IMG/VR virus record: IMGVR_UViG_2579779076_000011
DNA: 45,626 nt
Origin: a virus
Lineage: Duplodnaviria; Heunggongvirae; Uroviricota; Caudoviricetes
Reading direction: 5' to 3' (one strand)
Shown: in pieces, positions 12,536 through 21,454 of the stretch
Layout: every line of letters begins with the position of its first letter
How positions within the stretch are numbered: position 1 is the stretch's first letter
Notes under the pieces: model-generated
The model's input: only the letters and a program-made list of their open reading frames with translations
The model's database searches: none
What the model was told of the DNA's origin: nothing
Position numbers and translations under genes: made by a program

Positions 12536-13096
12536 TTATTTTAAAGTACAGCCTGCCCGAAATGCACTGCTAATTTCAACATATTCCGCTCTGGCCGTAC
12601 CTCTAAGTTTCTGAGACTCACGTTCAAAACTCGCCAAATCTTCCTTACATTTTGCCGAAGTAGACTGGAATCCTTTCCCGCACATCTGAAATGTGACTGT
12701 CGGATCCGCAAATCGGGTACGCTGGGCGTAAGCCTGGCAAACAGCGGATGCCCTCGCTTGTTTTTGTCGTGGGCTTAACGGGCGTGCTGGTGTGGCCTGT
12801 TCTGCCCTCTCCATTTTCAGGCGGTAGCAGCTTAAATTACGAGAGGCGATCACCTTTTTAATAGCCTGGGCGCGGCGATAATTTGAATTAAATTCAGGAT
12901 GAGATGATGGATTAAGGTTGAGCAATGGCTCTATATTATCTTCTGCCTGGCAAAGCTGTGAATCGGTGTACTGCGCAAGTTTTGCCGCCTCGATTGCAGC
13001 CGGATCTGGTTGTGAATTTTTTTGGGTATGGCTTACACATCCGGACAGCGTAAATCCAGCGGTCAGTGCTAAGATGATTTTTGATATTCCGTTCAT
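12536..13096 (-). CDS. lipoprotein, unknown function
   Basis: Signal peptide with lipobox LSGC; several Cys; SD AGGAA. Confidence 0.5.
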   Translation of the reverse strand: MNGISKIILALTAGFTLSGCVSHTQKNSQPDPAAIEAAKLAQYTDSQLCQAEDNIEPLLNLNPSSHPEFNSNYRRAQAIKKVIASRNLSCYRLKMERAEQATPARPLSPRQKQARASAVCQAYAQRTRFADPTVTFQMCGKGFQSTSAKCKEDLASFERESQKLRGTARAEYVEISSAFRAGCTLK

Positions 13097-13227
13097 TTTC
13101 TATTCCTGTTTCGATGTTTTGGTGGTGCACTTTCCCCACTCGGATAAGATTATGCATTCGGATTCGAGTGATGAGGCAACGCCATATAGGCGATGGCAGC
13201 CAGCACGATGGTGATTAAAATATTTAA

Positions 13228-14463
13228 TCAGAATTTCCGTTCTTTCCAGCGTTTAACCAACGCGGCCATGTTCAGCGGCCATAATTTAGGCTCAATCACT
13301 TTGCCTTCAAACATCGCGCCGAGCTCAATACCTAGGGCAAAATGTACGGTCATTGTTTCAGGGTTGACGGCCATCAGCTCTGCGTCTAGTAAGTCGTGTA
13401 TCGTTGGAGTCAACAACAGGCCATTATCAGCGCTAAAATTGCCTGAGGTAGCTGGCTCAATGTGCGCCGCTTGCAATCGTTCGCCGTTCTGCCAGCCAGT
13501 CACCGCGCAACGGCCAGCAAAATTATTCCATACCCATTCAACAAACTGCATATGCGCCGTCGTGTCGCGCTGCTCAACGATGCGCTGCGCGGTTCGGGTA
13601 CTGTGGAGTTTGACAGGTTGGCCAAGCGCGGGCGCGGGTTTCTCTTCCTCCACGACGACCACTACTTCCTGCGACATGATGATTCGATCATCGGCTACCA
13701 GTTCCGGAACAACGTCGGCCAGCTTCTCGGCTTCTCGGATGATTTGCTTTTCTTCCTGATCATCCAGGTACCGCTGCACCAGTTCAATGGTCGTGGTGGC
13801 TTCATGCTGGTGTTTGTGGATATAAAGCTCAACATCACGACGCTGGCTGGCTGGAATGTGTTTTGCCAGAAAATCCTGTAGGACGCGATTATCCAGCTTT
13901 GTCGTAACTTTTGATGTCATGCTCACAGAATCATACCGTTTCGGTGTTTCCATCTGCGTTGATTGCAGGCCTGGTAATTCGGTGTTGATTTGAGCGGAAA
14001 CCTTGCGCGGGATGATTGTCGGCGTAAATGCTGGCGTGCTGGCCTGGGACGTGCCACGGCGACGGGCATTCTCCCAAAGGGCTTCTGTTTCAGGGTTTTT
14101 GCGTGCGCCTGGCTTTTGCATAGGCATAGTGCGAATCAGCGCTTCCCAGCCCATATTGACCTTCTGTTTGGCCTCGCGGCGTTTATCGGCCAGCGTAGGT
14201 TTTGATGGTCGTTTTTTGGAGAGCGCTTTCTCTGGTTTTAATTTGATGCCGCGCGATAAACCATTTATCAGTGTTGGATGCACTGATAAGGCTTTGGCCA
14301 ATTGCAAACCGTTTAAATTGCTGCCATCTGTATAAGCGTACATAAACAAATCCGCCCAGCCATCATGTTGAGGGGTCATACCCACGCTGGTTAAGGCTGC
14401 GCGAATCTCTTTTTTGCGAGCTTTGTCCAAGTTAAATTTTGGGGTTTTATTTCGCTTAGTCAT
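13228..14463 (-). CDS. HNH-type nuclease domain protein (C-terminal HNH), N-terminal basic low-complexity region
   Basis: C-terminal GRCAVTGW..AAHI..NGLLLTPTIHDLLD fits an HNH-like motif; N-terminal ~250 aa Lys/Arg-rich with no recognised domain. Confidence 0.55.
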   Translation of the reverse strand: MTKRNKTPKFNLDKARKKEIRAALTSVGMTPQHDGWADLFMYAYTDGSNLNGLQLAKALSVHPTLINGLSRGIKLKPEKALSKKRPSKPTLADKRREAKQKVNMGWEALIRTMPMQKPGARKNPETEALWENARRRGTSQASTPAFTPTIIPRKVSAQINTELPGLQSTQMETPKRYDSVSMTSKVTTKLDNRVLQDFLAKHIPASQRRDVELYIHKHQHEATTTIELVQRYLDDQEEKQIIREAEKLADVVPELVADDRIIMSQEVVVVVEEEKPAPALGQPVKLHSTRTAQRIVEQRDTTAHMQFVEWVWNNFAGRCAVTGWQNGERLQAAHIEPATSGNFSADNGLLLTPTIHDLLDAELMAVNPETMTVHFALGIELGAMFEGKVIEPKLWPLNMAALVKRWKERKF

Positions 14464-14543
14464 TTCAGTTCAGCACACTAATAATGGTAACCATGACCGC
14501 AGCAAACACGATCCCCGAAATATTCATTACTGCCATATATTGG

Positions 14544-15395
<852 letters not shown>

Positions 15396-15464
15396 TCATG
15401 TCAATTGACAACTTATAGTTCCCACTAGTTAGCATTAAGATTTTTACAGTGAGGAATAATCAAT

Positions 15465-15516
15465 GTCCGCTCCTGGCACAGAGTGGACGAACAACTGAAG
15501 ACCCGCTGTGAGCGAG
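15465..15516. repeat. structured repeat copy A (partial): hairpin + AACTGAAG spacer + CCGCTGTGAGCGAG
   Basis: GTCCGCTC-N8-GAGTGGAC stem, then GAACAACTGAAGAC, then CCGCTGTGAGCGAG; shares the core with copies B and C but lacks the distal arm. Confidence 0.45.
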
Positions 15517-15675
15517 AAACAGACATCACAACTCACAAGGATTATACGCAGTTTGTTATCCAAACATACGGGTGCCAAGTGTTATAATCCGGCACTAACA
15601 GCATGATGCTTGGAAGTACATTTAAATGTAAAATGATAGTGTACTCTGACTGAAGCCTGGTAAAAAGGAACTGAT

Positions 15676-17055
15676 ATGTACAACAACCTCTATGCCCTCA
15701 CAGAAAGCCTTTTCTGGGTTGATCGACTTTTAGATCAGGAATATGAAAATATTGGATTGAATGAATTGCTAATTGAGTTAGATGAATATAATAAAAGAAT
15801 AGATTCACTGATTATCGAGCAAGCAAATTCTGTACAGGAGTCTCGGCTAAATGTTTACATGGCGGGAAATCGTAATATTGAAAGGTATAAGAGTGGACTG
15901 TTTTCAATGGACAGAGTCATTCTTGATGATGTTCTGTATTCATTGAGCCTACGATACAGAGTGAGTCTAACAGAAAATGCATTTGAAAAAATTATTGTAA
16001 GCGATAGAAAAGAGAAGGTTGAACATCTCAGGAAGGAAATTGCTAGATTTATCAGGTTTGCTAAAGAAAACTTTGATCTTATCCGTGGTGAGTTTATCGT
16101 TTTTGTACGCAGCGAATCTTCTATTAAAGATTCGGAGAGGGCCAATGGAATTTTAGACGATAACTCTGATGCTAATTTTATATATCGATATCTCCCTCCT
16201 AACATTGCCCGTCTTTATGAAAATAGACTATCCGTAAAGAATATAGAACGTCTAGGTAATACAAATAAAATTCGGTTATTAAACAAAAATGTTTTATCTA
16301 ATGAAATTATGTTGGAAATTAAAGACTGTGAAAGTTTATATACAAATGGATATATGTATCAACATATAAAAAATGCCATTGATAATGATGATGGCTCCAT
16401 ATCTATGGAGCTTGTCATGGGAAATCATAGCGGAAAAAAAAGTTATGAACGGTGGGTGCAGGGAGCAAAAAACCGTACGGTTCTCTTTCATTATAAAAAC
16501 CTTATTACTGACCTTAACCAAGCGCATTCATGTAGAGCATCCCTGGGGGCATATTGCCCGTTTCATGGAGAGATTCTTCGTAAACTTGATCAAAAGAATG
16601 AAGTTCAGAGGGTTAAACTCTCTATAGACGTTCCATTCTTAGAGGGACTGACTCCAAGTGAACTCTACAAAATTAGAACTGACTACGAGCCGAGTTTTAA
16701 TTCTTTCCGCTCTGTACTACGTGAAGCTGCGTATGATATAGAAGCAGAAAGTGATCCATATAAGAGACAACTAATAAATCAACATTTTGTCGAGCGGGTG
16801 TGGGATGAAGGATTGACAGATATTGAGCAAAAAATACAAGCCTATAAGCGGAAGAGTAAAAAAGAACTTTTTCTTAACAGTGTGCCTTCATTGATAGGTT
16901 TTATTGGTGCACCAAATCCAGTGTCGTTGGCTACAGGAGCTTTTACGATTCTAAAAGATGTCTTTAATATTACAAGCCATTCTTCAGAAATAAAGAGCCA
17001 CCCTTCATATTTCCTTCTCATGATGTCAAAAGCCAAAAACAAACCTTATGACTGA
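15676..17055 (+). CDS. hypothetical protein (459 aa), AT-rich orphan cargo gene
   Basis: SD AAGGAA before ATG; Lys/Asn/Ile-rich composition typical of horizontally acquired cargo; no recognisable catalytic motif. Confidence 0.6.
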   Translation: MYNNLYALTESLFWVDRLLDQEYENIGLNELLIELDEYNKRIDSLIIEQANSVQESRLNVYMAGNRNIERYKSGLFSMDRVILDDVLYSLSLRYRVSLTENAFEKIIVSDRKEKVEHLRKEIARFIRFAKENFDLIRGEFIVFVRSESSIKDSERANGILDDNSDANFIYRYLPPNIARLYENRLSVKNIERLGNTNKIRLLNKNVLSNEIMLEIKDCESLYTNGYMYQHIKNAIDNDDGSISMELVMGNHSGKKSYERWVQGAKNRTVLFHYKNLITDLNQAHSCRASLGAYCPFHGEILRKLDQKNEVQRVKLSIDVPFLEGLTPSELYKIRTDYEPSFNSFRSVLREAAYDIEAESDPYKRQLINQHFVERVWDEGLTDIEQKIQAYKRKSKKELFLNSVPSLIGFIGAPNPVSLATGAFTILKDVFNITSHSSEIKSHPSYFLLMMSKAKNKPYD

Positions 17056-17170
17056 GGCAGTAGAAAATAAAGTGAAAATATATTCACTTAAGAAAGATGG
17101 TTCTAAAGGGACATAATTAGATTAACCCAGTGACCTGTTCCCCTTGAATCAACATAGGCTGTTGTTAGCT

Positions 17171-17234
17171 ACTTCCGCTTCTGACACGAAGCGGACAAAA
17201 ACTGAAGGTCCGCTGTGAGCGAGGAGCGGAAGTT
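17171..17234. repeat. structured repeat copy B (complete)
   Basis: ACTTCCGC..CCGCTTC-TGACAC-GAAGCGG..AACTGAAGGT..CCGCT-GTGAGCGAGG-AGCGG-AAGTT; the outer ends ACTTCCGC / GCGGAAGT are also inverted repeats. Confidence 0.5.
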
Positions 17235-17377
17235 GATTTTATTGAGAGTAAAACAGATCTATAGTAAATGGTCTTGTTATGTAGGGGATTTACGATAATT
17301 TTACTACCAAGGTCGTTAAAAATTCATATGAAATATCAACGATAGTGACCTATTTTTCATAAGGCCACTATATGAAT

Positions 17378-18040
17378 CTATTGTTCTATTTTAATTTTAT
17401 TTAACGTTATAGGGGCTGGGTTATAGCTAGGTATATATAATATCTCACTCCCTAGCTTGCGCTCTTTTATATTTACTTCTTTAGCGACAAGGTTACCGTC
17501 ATACAACCTAATAATCACGTAGTCTTTAGATTGATCATGAAAGTAACTAAATTCTTTTTTTAATGACGCTTGTTGTAAACCAATTAAGAAACTAAATGTC
17601 ATTATGGCAATAAGGGGAAGGGTTGCAGACCAAATTAAATAACTTGGATTACGTTTATGATTTTTAACAATTTTGTATATAATATAAGTAACTGTTGCTA
17701 TCGATAAACTTAAAACGAAAAAACCACCATATTCAGTCTTATGTCTATAAGACTGAACAATAAAAACAATCATGATAAAAACTGTAACTGCAGTAACTTT
17801 AACTGCTTTTACTTTACTTTCAGGCCATGGAGTAAAAAACATCAACATAACACAAATTATATTAAAAAATAAATATGACATACCCACGAATAAAAATTTA
17901 GAATCTAACGTTATAAACTCCATAGGATAATCAAAATGATATGCATAGCCATATTCAAATGAAATTGCAGACATATAAGATAGAACAGTTATTGCCAATA
18001 TTAGCAAGGCTTCCTTGCTTTTTATAAAGTCAATTATCAT
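17378..18040 (-). CDS. multi-pass membrane protein, unknown function (AT-rich orphan)
   Basis: Five to six hydrophobic helices in the first ~160 aa, soluble C-terminal ~60 aa; no clear SD (start uncertain). Confidence 0.5.
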   Translation of the reverse strand: MIIDFIKSKEALLILAITVLSYMSAISFEYGYAYHFDYPMEFITLDSKFLFVGMSYLFFNIICVMLMFFTPWPESKVKAVKVTAVTVFIMIVFIVQSYRHKTEYGGFFVLSLSIATVTYIIYKIVKNHKRNPSYLIWSATLPLIAIMTFSFLIGLQQASLKKEFSYFHDQSKDYVIIRLYDGNLVAKEVNIKERKLGSEILYIPSYNPAPITLNKIKIEQ

Positions 18041-18364
18041 GATGTTTGTTTTTTAATGAATAAAATAATCACTTACCAGACAGTTAATCTTCTTAATTGT
18101 CATTGTGTTAAGTGAACCCCGAATTTTTCTCAGTTCTTCTGAAGAAGTCCTCATGTATATGATAACAACCAAAAAAATTTTTTTCACTAATTATACTAAA
18201 ATCCATGAAGAATCAGCAGTGTGAAGCAGGGAGAACCTCTAACAAGAGACGCCGTCATTTTGTAAATTTCCCGGCAAACCAGAACATCTGCTTTTAGACA
18301 TAGGATTCAATGTGCTATTACGGCGAGCTGTTCCCACAGATTGATGGAGATAGATGTTAGCAAT

Positions 18365-18433
18365 GCCCGCTTTTGGTACGAAGCGGGCAAGCTAACTGAG
18401 TTGAAAGTTCGCTGTGAGCGAGGAGCGGAAGTT
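18365..18433. repeat. structured repeat copy C (complete)
   Basis: GCCCGCTT-N8-AAGCGGGC hairpin, spacer, then TTCGCTGTGAGCGAGGAGCGGAAGTT; the 3-prime 24 nt are identical to copy B. Confidence 0.5.
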
Positions 18434-18518
18434 CGTAATTGTTCTCGCAGCTAGGGTAGCTAAAAGACACGGCAGGCAAATGTCTACATGTAGGATACAC
18501 TTGCTATTATCAAGAATT

Positions 18519-19298
18519 TTAGTCCTGAAGCATTTTAACTTTCTTCTCATGTTTTTTATATTCGCCTTTTATCCATTCAGGTTCTTCCCGAATAGCTGAG
18601 CGCATACAGTATGTTGGGATATCATTCCAGAAAGCTGTAATCGCATCTGCAAACTCTATAAACTGTGTTTCTGTAACCTCAAGTTGCTCATGACGTAGAC
18701 TAAATCTGTAGCCTCTTGGAATATTGATATCCTGATAATACTCAGGATGCGCGACGGAAAGCACCCGATGGGCATGGCCATCACCGTGCTTATAAACATT
18801 AACCACTTGGCGACAGGCATCGATTTTTTCGTAATAAGCCTTGCTGGTGATATCCATCCCAATCCATTCTAGAATTTCAATTAGCCTTGGGAAGCTAATG
18901 TCCCAGATCATCGATGTTACGGATTTAGCGTCGAGCCAATGGCTGAATTCTCTGATACACTTCTCTCTAAGTTCCTTGTCGAACTGATGAAACATTCCTG
19001 CTGTCAGAGCAAGTGAAACCGTATTTTTCATATCACTGAGAGCAATCCAATGTGAAATTCCTTCATCATGAGCCTGTTCACAGATAGCCCCTTCGTCGTC
19101 ATAATCGGGGTCAAAACGCTTACCGGCGGCCTCATAGTAATCTTGTTCTCTCTGCCTGGCTTCAGCTTCAAGATCAGAATCGCTAAACTGCGAAAATAGA
19201 CGCTTTCTGGCTTCAGCAACATAAAAATTGTGTTTGTCGAGGAAGTAAGACCGATCAATGGTTGCAAAATAAAAAAGTGAAAAATCTTTGTTGCTCAT
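18519..19298 (-). CDS. hypothetical protein (259 aa), orphan cargo gene
   Basis: Good SD (GAGGGAG) before ATG 19298; acidic protein with His-rich patch (HGDGHAH); no family recognised. Confidence 0.6.
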   Translation of the reverse strand: MSNKDFSLFYFATIDRSYFLDKHNFYVAEARKRLFSQFSDSDLEAEARQREQDYYEAAGKRFDPDYDDEGAICEQAHDEGISHWIALSDMKNTVSLALTAGMFHQFDKELREKCIREFSHWLDAKSVTSMIWDISFPRLIEILEWIGMDITSKAYYEKIDACRQVVNVYKHGDGHAHRVLSVAHPEYYQDINIPRGYRFSLRHEQLEVTETQFIEFADAITAFWNDIPTYCMRSAIREEPEWIKGEYKKHEKKVKMLQD

Positions 19299-19712
19299 GG
19301 GGATCTCCCTCGTTTTGTCAGTTGTACAAGCCCCTGGAAGTAGGCTACTAATAAAGAAAAAATTACCTTTGAATAACTGTGCAAGATAGCAGTACGCCTA
19401 AAAGTAGTGCAAGTATCCCAACCAGGATAACGATGCGTTTTCAAATATCTGACTTAACGCTTGCGATATCCGCTCTGGCAACAAAGTAGACTGTCAGATT
19501 AAATTTGTCTTCACGCCATAGATGTGTCAGCTCATATCTTATCTAATACACACAACATTCTCTCATTCTTAGAGAATTAATCTTTTAAGGGTAGGTGTTG
19601 ACGTTAGAACAAAAGAATAGATATTTTTGAAGCATATAATATGAGCTATAACCATAGGACGCATATAAAAGCTTACGGTGTGGTCTTATAATTTGGCACA
19701 AATGATTTACTA

Positions 19713-19739
19713 ACCCGCTTCGGCGGGTCTTCTTTTTTA
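19713..19739 (+). terminator. intrinsic terminator (ACCCGC-TTCG-GCGGGT + T-run)
   Basis: GC stem with TTCG tetraloop followed by CTTCTTTTTTAT; a TATAAT hexamer lies ~25 nt upstream at 19686-19691. Confidence 0.5.
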
Positions 19740-19807
19740 TAGACTTCACGATGTGAAAACGAATAATAAATTGTGCAAATAATGCAGTTTTATTATTCGA
19801 GGTAATT

Positions 19808-20449
19808 ATGAAAACCCTCTATGAGGACTGGCCTGAAACTTTCGTTAGCCGATTAGATATGTTACGAGCTCTGGATGATCGCGGCTCGACCCGGAGGCTC
19901 TATCTTGAGCGGACCGGGGCAATATTTGACGCTCTGGCAGAAGAGATACGTACAGCCGTTACCAGGCATCCTGAAATCGACGCGAGTGAACTTGATATCG
20001 GGCCGCTGTATCGCTATTACAAACGTGGAGAAAAGGGGAATCCGCTGGCTGACTTACTTATTGAGTTGGCTCCACCAACTTGTGAACGGGTTCGTATATC
20101 TCCTGAAGTGTACACAATCCCGTATCTGTTTTTTGCACTGTTGATAGCGCAAGGCGCTGACAACGATGCCCGCGATTTTTTCAATATGATGATGCGACCG
20201 TTAATCATCGCCTACCGTTTCAAACAACTGGCGCGTTACCTTGGCACTAAGGGCGGAGGACGACCACAGCACAGATTAAAAAGCGAAGCCATTGAACTGG
20301 CTGATCGTTTTTTTACTGAAAACCCGACAGCGCCATTATCGCGTGGTGTGCAATACATATCCGGTATTTTTGTGGCGAAATACTCTGACCCACCTGCAGC
20401 GTCGACGATTAGAAAATGGTTAATTTCAATTTACAGGAGTGATAAATAA
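19808..20449 (+). CDS. hypothetical protein (213 aa)
   Basis: SD GAGGT before ATG; no recognised motif. Confidence 0.55.
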   Translation: MKTLYEDWPETFVSRLDMLRALDDRGSTRRLYLERTGAIFDALAEEIRTAVTRHPEIDASELDIGPLYRYYKRGEKGNPLADLLIELAPPTCERVRISPEVYTIPYLFFALLIAQGADNDARDFFNMMMRPLIIAYRFKQLARYLGTKGGGRPQHRLKSEAIELADRFFTENPTAPLSRGVQYISGIFVAKYSDPPAASTIRKWLISIYRSDK

Positions 20450-20600
20450 TGACCATAAACGGTTTAATCCCCTATAAAACCGTTTAATAAAATTCACGAC
20501 GTGAATATAATTGTTCATTATTCCCTCATTGTATCTGGCGTTATGACAAATGCCATAAAATACTGTATAAATGTACAGGTAATGGCGTTAGGGGGAAGAC

Positions 20601-20780
20601 ATGAATATTCAAGAATCTATAGGCGAACTACCGGAAACATGCCGGGCTGTTATCAAGCGTAAGGACGGACACATCGTTGGTGTGCGTGTTCTGACTGATG
20701 ATGAACGGATTGCCAGCCTGATGGCGTTTCTCGAGTTGGCAGAAATAGCTGGATATACTATTACACCCCCTGACGCGTAA
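20601..20780 (+). CDS. hypothetical small protein (59 aa)
   Basis: Not in the ORF track (59 aa). Strong SD AGGGGGAAG before ATG 20601; translation MNIQESIGELPETCRAVIKRKDGHIVGVRVLTDDERIASLMAFLELAEIAGYTITPPDA. Confidence 0.4.
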   Translation: MNIQESIGELPETCRAVIKRKDGHIVGVRVLTDDERIASLMAFLELAEIAGYTITPPDA

Positions 20781-20857
20781 AACACGGTATAATATCGGTG
20801 CTGGATTGAACACCCGGCACCATTTTCTGAACACTGCCGCGCCACCTGGAGTTAACC

Positions 20858-21454
20858 ATGGCGCAGCATTCATTTATCAGGGTATCCGGCGGTTCGCTAA
20901 TACCCGCGACACCAGACACGCAACGCTGGTTGACTGAACGAGTCAAACCAGGTGCTGTTGTGTATGCAGATTTCAAACAGGCACGCAATCCCGCGTTTCA
21001 CCGTAAATTTTTCTCACTTCTCAACCTGGGCTTTGATTACTGGCATCCGTCCGGAGGGGCTATTTCTCCTGCGGAGCGCGAACTGGTTCACGGCTACGTT
21101 AAGTTACTGGCGTATTACGGTGGACACGGTGATGTCATGGCAGAGCTGGCTGATCAGTATCTTCTCGATGAGTCGGAAAAGCGCGCGGGGAATATCAGTG
21201 CGGTGAAGTCGTTCGAGGCGTTTCGCGCATGGGCGATTATGGAAGCTGGGTTTTATGACGTTCATCAGATGCCAGACGGCAGTTTGATGCGCGTACCTCG
21301 TTCAATCTCGTTTGCTGCGATGGACGATCTTGAGTTCGGTCAACTGTATTCAGCCGTTTTAGATGTGCTGTGGAATTATATTTTGTTCCGCACGTTTGCC
21401 TCTCAGGAGGCTGCTGAAAATGCTGCCGCGCAGCTGCTGGATTACACATCATGA
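20858..21454 (+). CDS. nin-region-type protein (YbcN/DUF1367-like, tentative)
   Basis: SD GGAG before ATG; 198 aa; position before a small Cys/His protein and a Q-like gene mirrors lambdoid nin regions. Family from memory. Confidence 0.45.
   Translation: MAQHSFIRVSGGSLIPATPDTQRWLTERVKPGAVVYADFKQARNPAFHRKFFSLLNLGFDYWHPSGGAISPAERELVHGYVKLLAYYGGHGDVMAELADQYLLDESEKRAGNISAVKSFEAFRAWAIMEAGFYDVHQMPDGSLMRVPRSISFAAMDDLEFGQLYSAVLDVLWNYILFRTFASQEAAENAAAQLLDYTS

What the first reader, a model, noticed from the sequence alone, without database searches (positions are those of the whole stretch)
17378..18040. Orphan multi-pass membrane protein cassette bounded by repeats B and C
A 220 aa protein with five to six predicted transmembrane helices and a short soluble C-terminus, very AT-rich, sits alone on the minus strand between two repeat copies. 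Small membrane proteins in prophage cargo regions are often superinfection-exclusion or abortive-infection effectors. No clear SD at the annotated start, so the true start may be internal.
Basis: inference. Interest (0 to 1): 0.5.

Follow-up and report, generated by a model that had tools for sequence, protein, structure and literature searches.

The report
Prophage membrane-protein cassette, likely phage exclusion
A real, self-contained gene for a five-helix inner-membrane protein sits in the cargo region of an E. coli prophage; it belongs to an uncharacterised family carried by several kinds of temperate phage and probably protects the lysogen against other phages, though this is untested.

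Summary
ORF 17378-18040 (-) is a genuine gene: dN/dS is 0.12-0.17 against three diverged copies. It encodes five hydrophobic helices plus a ~65-aa beta-rich C-terminal domain, at 29% GC, with no Shine-Dalgarno sequence, and it lies exactly between repeats B and C.

It is not a strict orphan. An exhaustive HMMER search finds a sparse family of 47 representatives with shared motifs. No Pfam, NCBIfam, PADLOC, PDB or viral-structure match reaches significance.

The same ~1.2-kb cassette (80-96% aa identity) also occurs in Klebsiella P4-like satellites, beside SIR2-HerA, and in a Kluyvera chromosomal islet, each time with different neighbours, so it acts alone. Distant relatives sit between the repressor and integrase of P2-like prophages, beside a lambdoid lysis cassette, and in an inovirus prophage. 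These are positions expressed in lysogens.

The positive-inside rule puts the conserved loop and the C-terminal domain in the periplasm. My best reading, as inference, is a superinfection-exclusion protein acting at the inner membrane (about 0.45).

The bounding repeats are a widespread double-hairpin element. It is found in 937 of 5,426 E. coli genomes and separates accessory and defence cassettes (PD-T4-3, Hachiman, retron Eco8). That element may be the more interesting lead.

The parts
17378..18040 (-). Coding sequence of the 220-aa membrane protein (stop codon included)
   Evidence: ORF list. RefSeq annotates it as hypothetical protein WP_000582583.1. dN/dS is 0.12-0.17 against L003, L013 and L026.
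17576..18013 (-). Residues 10-155: five transmembrane helices. Includes the conserved periplasmic loop-1 motif Y22..A..Y-E29-x-G31-Y-A..F..P-x-E-F-I..D
   Evidence: Hydropathy, AlphaFold helices, family alignments, positive-inside counts.
17381..17575 (-). Residues 156-220: beta-rich C-terminal domain, predicted periplasmic. Conserved motif G154...A....F..F......Y-x-[IV]-[IV]-R-x-Y
   Evidence: AlphaFold strands 164-213 with pLDDT 87-93, alignments, topology inference. dN/dS here is 0.07-0.16.
18159..18195 (-). Candidate promoters of the cassette itself: TATAAT at 18195-18190, and GTGAAA-17 nt-TG-n-TATCAT at 18187-18159
   Evidence: Consensus scan. Both boxes are conserved in four diverged copies. 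No experimental support.
18041..18158 (-). About 120-nt non-coding leader, A-rich, without a Shine-Dalgarno sequence
   Evidence: Conserved about as well as the CDS. The 44-aa upstream ORF is broken by indels in L003, so it is not coding. The consensus fold is weak at -11 kcal/mol.
17342..17372 (-). Hairpin directly after the stop codon (ATAGTGGCC-12 nt-GGTCACTAT). Possible terminator with a weak T tail
   Evidence: Read from the sequence. Present in L013 and L026, partly deleted in L003.
18353..18433 (+). Repeat C: right-end hairpin h1 (18353-18388), spacer, then left-end hairpin h2 (18401-18433). h1 closes the 220-aa cassette on the gene's upstream side
   Evidence: The same unit lies upstream of the gene in Kluyvera L026, and an h1-like hairpin lies upstream in L003.
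17161..17234 (+). Repeat B: h1 (17161-17196), spacer AAAAA, then h2 (17202-17234). h2 closes the 220-aa cassette on the gene's downstream side
   Evidence: An h2-type hairpin also follows the gene in L013 and L026.
17202..18388 (.). The whole mobile unit: left end (h2), terminator-like hairpin, CDS, leader, promoter, right end (h1)
   Evidence: Homology with L003, L013 and L026 starts and stops at these hairpins, and the flanks are unrelated.

Best explanation
The locus is an autonomous single-gene cassette of about 1.2 kb with its own promoter and leader. It is carried in the accessory region of an E. coli lambdoid prophage, between the replication genes and the nin/Q genes, and is transcribed against the early-right operon.

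It encodes an inner-membrane protein with the N-terminus in the cytoplasm and five transmembrane helices. A conserved first periplasmic loop and a conserved ~65-aa beta-rich C-terminal domain face the periplasm. The cytoplasmic parts are only short basic loops.

I propose that it is made in the lysogen and excludes superinfecting phages at the inner membrane, for example by blocking genome entry or a membrane component that phages need for entry.

Shown: that it is a gene, the architecture, the family, cassette mobility, and the prophage and defence-island contexts.
Inferred: the topology (positive-inside rule), expression in the lysogen for this copy, and the exclusion function itself.
For: Real gene under purifying selection.

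Architecture:
- Five helices plus a beta domain.
- The confident and conserved parts are TM1 with loop 1 and TM5 with the C-terminal domain.
- K+R counts over 44 homologues place the N-terminus, loop 2 and loop 4 inside, and loop 1, loop 3 and the C-terminal domain outside.

Acts alone. The cassette recurs at 80-96% aa identity with four unrelated sets of neighbours:
- the lambdoid prophage;
- Klebsiella P4-like satellites, after the primase gene;
- next to SIR2-HerA and MqsA;
- a Kluyvera islet beside bglX-dld.

Same repeat-delimited array as a PD-T4-3 homologue, E = 6.9e-138.

Remote homologues, with the family motifs checked, lie in these positions:
- in the cI-int lysogenic operon of two P2-like prophages. 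In phage K139 this is the slot that holds the exclusion gene glo;
- opposite the holin-lysozyme genes of a lambdoid prophage;
- in an integrative element with CI, Abi_alpha, an integrase and a restriction-modification system;
- near an S24 repressor;
- at the end of an inovirus prophage.
Against: - There is no functional data and no homology to any proven exclusion or defence protein.
- Context is guilt by association, and two Bacillota homologues show no phage context.
- Topology rests on the positive-inside rule only. No dedicated predictor was available.
- The promoter is a consensus match only.
- The gene is rare, present in 6 of 5,426 complete E. coli genomes, and absent from 50,697 sequenced phage records.
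Confidence: 0.45

Rival explanations
1. Abortive-infection effector. The protein stays inert in the membrane of the lysogen and, on infection, opens or depolarises the membrane, killing the cell before phage release. This would resemble lambda RexB or P22 SieB logic, but in a single polypeptide.
For: It is a polytopic membrane protein in a prophage cargo region next to PD-T4-3. Family members are co-transcribed with repressors, as rexAB is with cI (the rexAB comparison is from established knowledge).
Against: No partner sensor gene travels with it in any of four contexts. The cytoplasmic parts are only short basic loops, so there is little surface to sense intracellular infection cues (inference). 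There is no PADLOC hit and no SieB similarity.
Confidence: 0.2
2. Surface-structure accessory or lysogenic-conversion factor related to the TfpB/TfpY/FimB-type pilin accessory proteins. The protein would bind pilin-like or other bitopic envelope proteins in the inner membrane and alter a surface organelle. Exclusion of pilus-dependent phages could be a by-product.
For: Precomputed Pfam PF27470 'TfpB' hits are weak on P0010, P0018 and P0030 and faint on P0006 and P0051. TfpY-like proteins are about 235-245 aa, with the N-terminus inside, an odd number of transmembrane helices and a periplasmic beta-rich C-terminal domain (PMC11841053). One homologue is in an inovirus prophage, and inoviruses commonly use pili (the pilus link is from general knowledge).
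Against: The window protein and its close relatives have no PF27470 hit. It has five helices rather than three. No pilin gene lies next to any copy examined. I could not inspect PF27470 or obtain a TfpY sequence, so homology is untested. TfpY itself does not give phage defence.
Confidence: 0.15
3. Cargo unrelated to phages. Examples are an immunity protein against a membrane-targeting toxin, a stress or envelope-homeostasis protein, or a selfish passenger kept only because the cassette is mobile.
For: No function can be read from the sequence. Two Bacillota homologues lie among ordinary chromosomal genes. In Kluyvera the cassette sits next to an LRAT/NlpC-P60-type gene.
Against: No toxin partner is conserved across contexts. 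Purifying selection is strong. Placement is repeatedly in prophage regulatory and lysogenic operons.
Confidence: 0.15

Closest known systems
Inner-membrane superinfection-exclusion proteins of temperate and virulent phages (P22 SieA; T4 Imm and HK97 gp15 from established knowledge)
   Same: Small phage-borne polytopic inner-membrane protein. It has its own promoter or sits in the lysogenic operon, needs no partner gene, and is proposed to act at the membrane step of infection.
   Different: There is no sequence or profile similarity to P22 SieA or SieB (hhalign probability 0.2). This protein has five helices plus a conserved periplasmic beta domain. Function is untested.
Glo of Vibrio phage K139 (periplasmic exclusion protein in the cI-orf2-glo-int lysogenic operon)
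   Same: Remote homologues P0014 and P0016 occupy the same slot, between the repressor and integrase of P2-like prophages.
   Different: Glo is a 137-aa soluble periplasmic protein. Neither Glo nor K139 Orf2 shows any homology to this family. The window copy is in a lambdoid prophage, not in that slot.
TfpY/TfpZ/FimB-like type IV pilin accessory proteins, and Pfam PF27470 'TfpB'
   Same: Similar size, N-terminus inside, an odd number of transmembrane helices, and a periplasmic beta-rich C-terminal domain. Several remote homologues carry weak or faint precomputed PF27470 hits.
   Different: This family has five helices against three, no adjacent pilin gene, and is borne on prophages and satellites. 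The window protein itself has no PF27470 hit. The identity of PF27470 with TfpY-like proteins rests on my memory of the Moraxella tfpB and D. nodosus fimB literature and was not checked.
Lambda RexB-type membrane components of abortive-infection systems
   Same: A prophage-encoded polytopic membrane protein expressed in the lysogen.
   Different: RexB needs RexA, and here no partner is conserved. No PADLOC model matches.
Integron gene cassettes (attC) and the PeSL modules of T4-type phages, as analogues for the bounding repeats
   Same: Single genes in either orientation are separated by short structured repeats and arranged in arrays. The same cassette is found in unrelated elements.
   Different: The repeat ends are direct (GTT...GTT), not the inverted RYYYAAC/GTTRRRY core sites of attC. 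The primary sequence is conserved, not only the fold. No integron integrase lies nearby. The PeSL comparison is from memory only.

Membership tests
Pfam PF07695 7TMR-DISM_7TM | Score at or above the Pfam gathering threshold (29 bits) | tested here: not met
   19.7 bits, E = 8.6e-4. Only 5 of 23 family members give a sub-threshold hit. This is most likely shared hydrophobicity.
Pfam PF27470 'TfpB' / TfpY-like pilin accessory proteins | Significant match to the family profile | tested here: inconclusive
   The window protein, P0002 and P0003 have no precomputed hit. Remote homologues have weak or faint hits. PF27470 is not reported by the local Pfam copy even at E <= 10.
Pfam PF27470 'TfpB' / TfpY-like pilin accessory proteins | Three N-terminal transmembrane helices followed by a periplasmic beta-sheet domain (PMC11841053) | tested here: not met
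   There are five helices. The periplasmic beta domain is similar in kind, but that is inferred only.
Pfam PF27470 'TfpB' / TfpY-like pilin accessory proteins | Gene placed directly next to a major pilin gene | tested here: not met
   No pilin gene lies beside any of the copies examined.
P22 SieA / SieB superinfection-exclusion proteins | Sequence or profile homology | tested here: not met
   hhalign probability 0.2 for both.
K139 Glo / Orf2 (lysogenic-operon exclusion module) | Sequence or profile homology | tested here: not met
   hhalign probability <= 0.4. Only the genomic slot is shared, and only by remote homologues.
Known anti-phage defence families (PADLOC-DB 2.0) | Match to any of 5,027 defence-protein models | tested here: not met
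   No hit at E <= 1.
Superinfection-exclusion proteins (functional class) | Expression blocks infection after adsorption without killing the cell | not testable with these tools
   Needs plating, adsorption and DNA-entry assays.
Integron gene cassette | attC site with inverted core sites (RYYYAAC ... GTTRRRY) that folds into one imperfect hairpin | tested here: not met
   The unit is two separate hairpins with the same 7-bp stem, and its outer ends are direct rather than inverted. Compensatory changes support the local hairpins.
Integron gene cassette | IntI integrase and attI next to the array | tested here: not met
   No integrase is annotated within 12 kb on either side in the identical RefSeq locus.
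Known RNA families (Rfam 15), for the repeats and the leader | Covariance-model match | tested here: not met
   Only one chance-level snoRNA hit in 13000-21000 at E <= 1.

The most novel reading that the evidence does not exclude
The 220-aa gene may be one unit of an undescribed cassette-exchange system of Enterobacterales mobile elements.

A conserved double-hairpin boundary element would define portable single-gene or few-gene cassettes. Both hairpins share the stem GTCCGCT/AGCGGAC; their loops are TGGCAC and GTGAGCGAGG. These cassettes would be shuffled, by a recombination mechanism still unknown, among lambdoid prophages, P2-like phages, P4-like satellites and chromosomal islets.

Unknown cassettes in these arrays, this one included, would then be new single-gene anti-phage functions. 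This protein would found a new exclusion family, remotely related to pilin accessory proteins.
Probability: 0.2. Interest if true: 0.75.

Novelty: new member of a known kind. Interest (0 to 1): 0.45.

Why it matters
If the protein excludes phages, it adds a new single-gene membrane-level family to the short list of characterised exclusion proteins. Its conserved periplasmic module (E29, G31, the YxIIRxY motif) can be mutated directly.

It is also practical to test. The gene is 663 bp, works without partners, and already circulates among E. coli, Klebsiella and Kluyvera elements.

The bounding repeats matter beyond this gene. They mark cassette borders in about 17% of complete E. coli genomes and separate known defence systems from unknown genes. 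They could therefore serve as a sequence flag for finding new defence genes, and they point to an unexplained route of cassette exchange between phage types.

Tried and rejected
- Protein family libraries. Pfam, NCBIfam, PHROGs and PADLOC scans of the protein and of 23 family members gave nothing above threshold.
- First AlphaFold run. With four close sequences it gave pLDDT 45 and was unusable. With 44 sequences it gave pLDDT 79.
- Two-gene system with the neighbouring 259-aa gene: rejected. The Klebsiella neighbour (261 aa) is unrelated, and the 259-aa cassette occurs alone elsewhere.
- Upstream 44-aa ORF as a leader peptide: rejected, because indels break the frame in L003.
- Structured leader RNA: support is weak at -11 kcal/mol.
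- Repeats as intrinsic terminators: no T tract follows them.
- Repeats as attC sites: the ends are not inverted.
- Repeats as known RNAs: no Rfam hit.
- Sequenced phages: megablast and tblastn found no copy of the gene or of P0008.
- Literature. Nilsson et al. 2004 and Odegrip et al. 2006 on the variable loci of P2-like phages are not held. Two text searches found no description of the repeat.
- No left-end hairpin was found to the left of PD-T4-3 and the HNH gene, so the left limit of the array is undefined.

Full report
**Where the window comes from**

The 1.4 kb around the finding is 99.6-100% identical to six complete E. coli chromosomes, including E24377A and SE11. It is absent from the other 5,420. 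The RefSeq annotation of the identical locus shows a lambdoid prophage. RepO and a DnaB-type helicase lie upstream. DUF1367, DUF1364, antiterminator Q, the lysis genes and terminase lie downstream, all on the + strand.

Between the replication and nin/Q genes lies about 10 kb of low-GC cargo. It contains:
- an HNH protein at 13228-14463;
- a GIY-YIG protein at 14544-15395 that matches the PADLOC model of defence gene PD-T4-3 at E = 6.9e-138;
- four unannotated ORFs of 459, 220, 259 and 213 aa with no family hits.

**Checking the observation**

The ORF at 17378-18040 (-) is present.
- *Chance.* At 28.8% GC about 8% of random codons are stops. A 220-codon open frame is therefore not a chance event (about 8e-9 by my arithmetic).
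- *Selection.* Against copies in Klebsiella (L003), an unnamed enterobacterial contig (L013) and Kluyvera (L026), dN/dS is 0.12-0.17 overall and 0.07-0.16 in the C-terminal third.
- *Architecture.* Hydropathy gives five peaks. AlphaFold with a 44-sequence alignment (pLDDT 79, pTM 0.73) gives five long helices followed by four to five strands at 164-213.
- *Start codon.* No Shine-Dalgarno sequence precedes the ATG. TTG12 is preceded by AAGGAAG. However, the first 11 codons behave as coding sequence, and remote homologues also carry a polar stretch before TM1. I therefore keep the annotated start.
- *Repeats.* Repeats B and C bracket the gene exactly.

**The protein family**

The word-indexed search found only four clusters at 75-100% identity, one of them a frameshifted copy. 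The exhaustive HMMER search of 1.84 billion representatives found 47 proteins at E <= 1e-3 and six at E <= 1e-10. Most are 220-280 aa and match end to end.

Alignments show shared motifs rather than mere hydrophobicity:
- Y22..A..Y-E29-x-G31-Y-A..F..P-x-E-F-I..D, directly after TM1;
- G154...A....F..F......Y-x-[IV][IV]-R-x-Y, after TM5.

These are also the high-confidence parts of the model. TM2-TM4 are variable, with pLDDT 61-70.

Nothing known matches:
- Pfam, NCBIfam, PHROGs and PADLOC give no hit above threshold.
- The family is unrelated to P22 SieA or SieB and to K139 Glo or Orf2.

Several remote members carry weak or faint precomputed hits to a recent Pfam entry, PF27470 'TfpB'. I could not inspect that entry. 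TfpY-like pilin accessory proteins have three helices and a periplasmic beta domain (PMC11841053). That is a similar plan, but the helix count differs and they lie next to pilin genes. I keep this as a lead only.

**Topology (inferred)**

Over the 44-member alignment, K+R is high in the N-terminus (3.0), in loop 2 with the start of TM3, and in loop 4 (4.4). It is low in loop 1 (0.5, net acidic) and loop 3. This gives an N-in, C-out topology. The conserved loop 1 and the C-terminal beta domain face the periplasm, and only short basic loops face the cytoplasm.

**The cassette and its mobility**

Homology between the window and L003, L013 and L026 covers about 330 nt upstream of the ATG and about 140 nt downstream of the stop. 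It ends at the repeat hairpins, and the flanks are unrelated. The upstream part holds two conserved promoter-like sites and a non-coding leader.

The neighbours differ in every context:
- the 459- and 259-aa genes in the window;
- the alpha primase gene and an unrelated 261-aa gene in Klebsiella P4-like satellites;
- a glyoxalase gene and SIR2-HerA in L013;
- a 378-aa gene and an LRAT-type gene beside bglX-dld in Kluyvera.

The gene is therefore a self-sufficient unit.

**Contexts of the remote homologues**

- P0014 and P0016 lie between the C repressor and the integrase of P2-like prophages. They share the strand with both genes, with gaps of only 2-84 nt. In phage K139 this lysogenic operon carries the exclusion gene glo.
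- P0008 lies opposite the holin-lysozyme genes of lambdoid prophages.
- P0011 lies in an element with a CI-like repressor, Abi_alpha and an integrase, followed by a restriction-modification pair.
- P0010 lies near an S24 repressor.
- P0018 lies at the regulatory end of an inovirus prophage.
- Two Bacillota members show no phage context.

The family is absent from 50,697 sequenced phage records.

**Mechanism**

Three observations fit a superinfection-exclusion protein acting at the inner membrane best: a partner-less protein, made in lysogens, whose conserved surfaces face the periplasm. An abortive-infection effector is the main rival. It is disfavoured because there is almost no cytoplasmic surface for sensing and no partner gene. 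A pilin-accessory-like or other envelope role remains possible. All functional statements are inference.

**The repeats**

Each unit consists of three parts:
- a right-end hairpin, h1: GATGTTAGCAAYG-GTCCGCT-yyTGGCACrr-AGCGGAC;
- a 2-20 nt variable spacer;
- a left-end hairpin, h2: CTGAAGG-TCCGCT-GTGAGCGAGG-AGCGGA-AGTT.

Both hairpins have the same stem and differ in their conserved loops. Stem covariation is modest. Each hairpin has six cells changed on both sides, and 2/500 (h2) and 32/500 (h1) shuffles reach the observed covariation score.

Unit B matches 1,023 places in 937 of 5,426 E. coli genomes. The sampled places were all intergenic. The places I sampled separate accessory genes:
- two unknown genes in the tail-sheath/fibre-assembly hotspot of a P2-like phage, whose array starts with a lone h2 and ends with a lone h1;
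- a large protein and retron Eco8;
- FRG/PDC-S15 and Hachiman;
- genes in CP4-like and e14-like remnants.

The window array ends with a degenerate h1 at 19468-19491. This h1 and the ~50 nt beyond it align with the right end of the P2-like hotspot.

The unit is not attC-like, because its ends are direct rather than inverted. It is not in Rfam. I found no description of it in the papers I could search.

**Verdict**

The protein is a new, uncharacterised family within a known kind of element: a prophage gene for a membrane protein that likely acts against other phages. The repeat element deserves its own follow-up.

Noticed in passing
window 15452-15527, 17161-17234, 18353-18433, and a lone degenerate hairpin at 19468-19491: A double-hairpin boundary element: two hairpins with the same 7-bp stem, GTCCGCT/AGCGGAC, and loops TGGCAC and GTGAGCGAGG. 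It delimits at least four cassettes in the window. It matches 937 of 5,426 complete E. coli genomes, in intergenic positions where checked, between accessory and defence genes. It has no Rfam family and is not attC-like.
   Followed up: partly
window 19445-19540 versus L014 6730-6830: The right end of the window's cassette array (hairpin h1 plus CTGTCAGATTA..GCCATAGATGTGTCAGCTCA) aligns with the right end of the cargo hotspot of a P2-like phage, Escherichia phage 899. This implies exchange of array ends between lambdoid and P2-like phages.
   Followed up: partly
window 14544-15395 (-): A GIY-YIG protein matches the PADLOC model of the validated defence gene PD-T4-3 at E = 6.9e-138. It is the left-most recognisable cassette of the same array. 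No left-end hairpin was found further left.
   Followed up: partly
window 18519-19298 (-), and L002 6105-6884: The neighbouring 259-aa gene has no family hit and is itself a repeat-bounded cassette. It recurs at 91% nucleotide identity in ten E. coli genomes, beside IS1 in a prophage remnant near paoABCD.
   Followed up: partly
window 15676-17055 (+) and 19808-20449 (+): The 459-aa and 213-aa ORFs have no Pfam or PADLOC hit. The 459-aa gene is the only cassette gene here that reads from the left-end hairpin towards the right-end hairpin.
   Followed up: no
L003 7600-10100 (Klebsiella pneumoniae P4-like satellite): The 220-aa cassette and a 261-aa gene are inserted after the alpha primase gene, between clusters of TGTTCACC-type iterons. 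This is a cargo site distinct from the published psu-int hotspot, which in the same elements holds an AAA_15/AAA_21 gene pair.
   Followed up: no
window 18003-18019: A perfect 17-nt hairpin, AGCAAGGAAGCCTTGCT, spans codons 8-13 of the ORF and is invariant in four diverged copies. It contains the AAGGAAG that looks like a Shine-Dalgarno sequence for TTG12. It could affect translation initiation.
   Followed up: no
L026 5996-9836 (Kluyvera cryocrescens): A chromosomal islet beside bglX-dld carries the cassette (96% aa identity) flanked by a 378-aa unknown gene and an LRAT/NlpC-P60-type gene, with three h2-type hairpins. This shows the cassettes also land outside prophages.
   Followed up: partly
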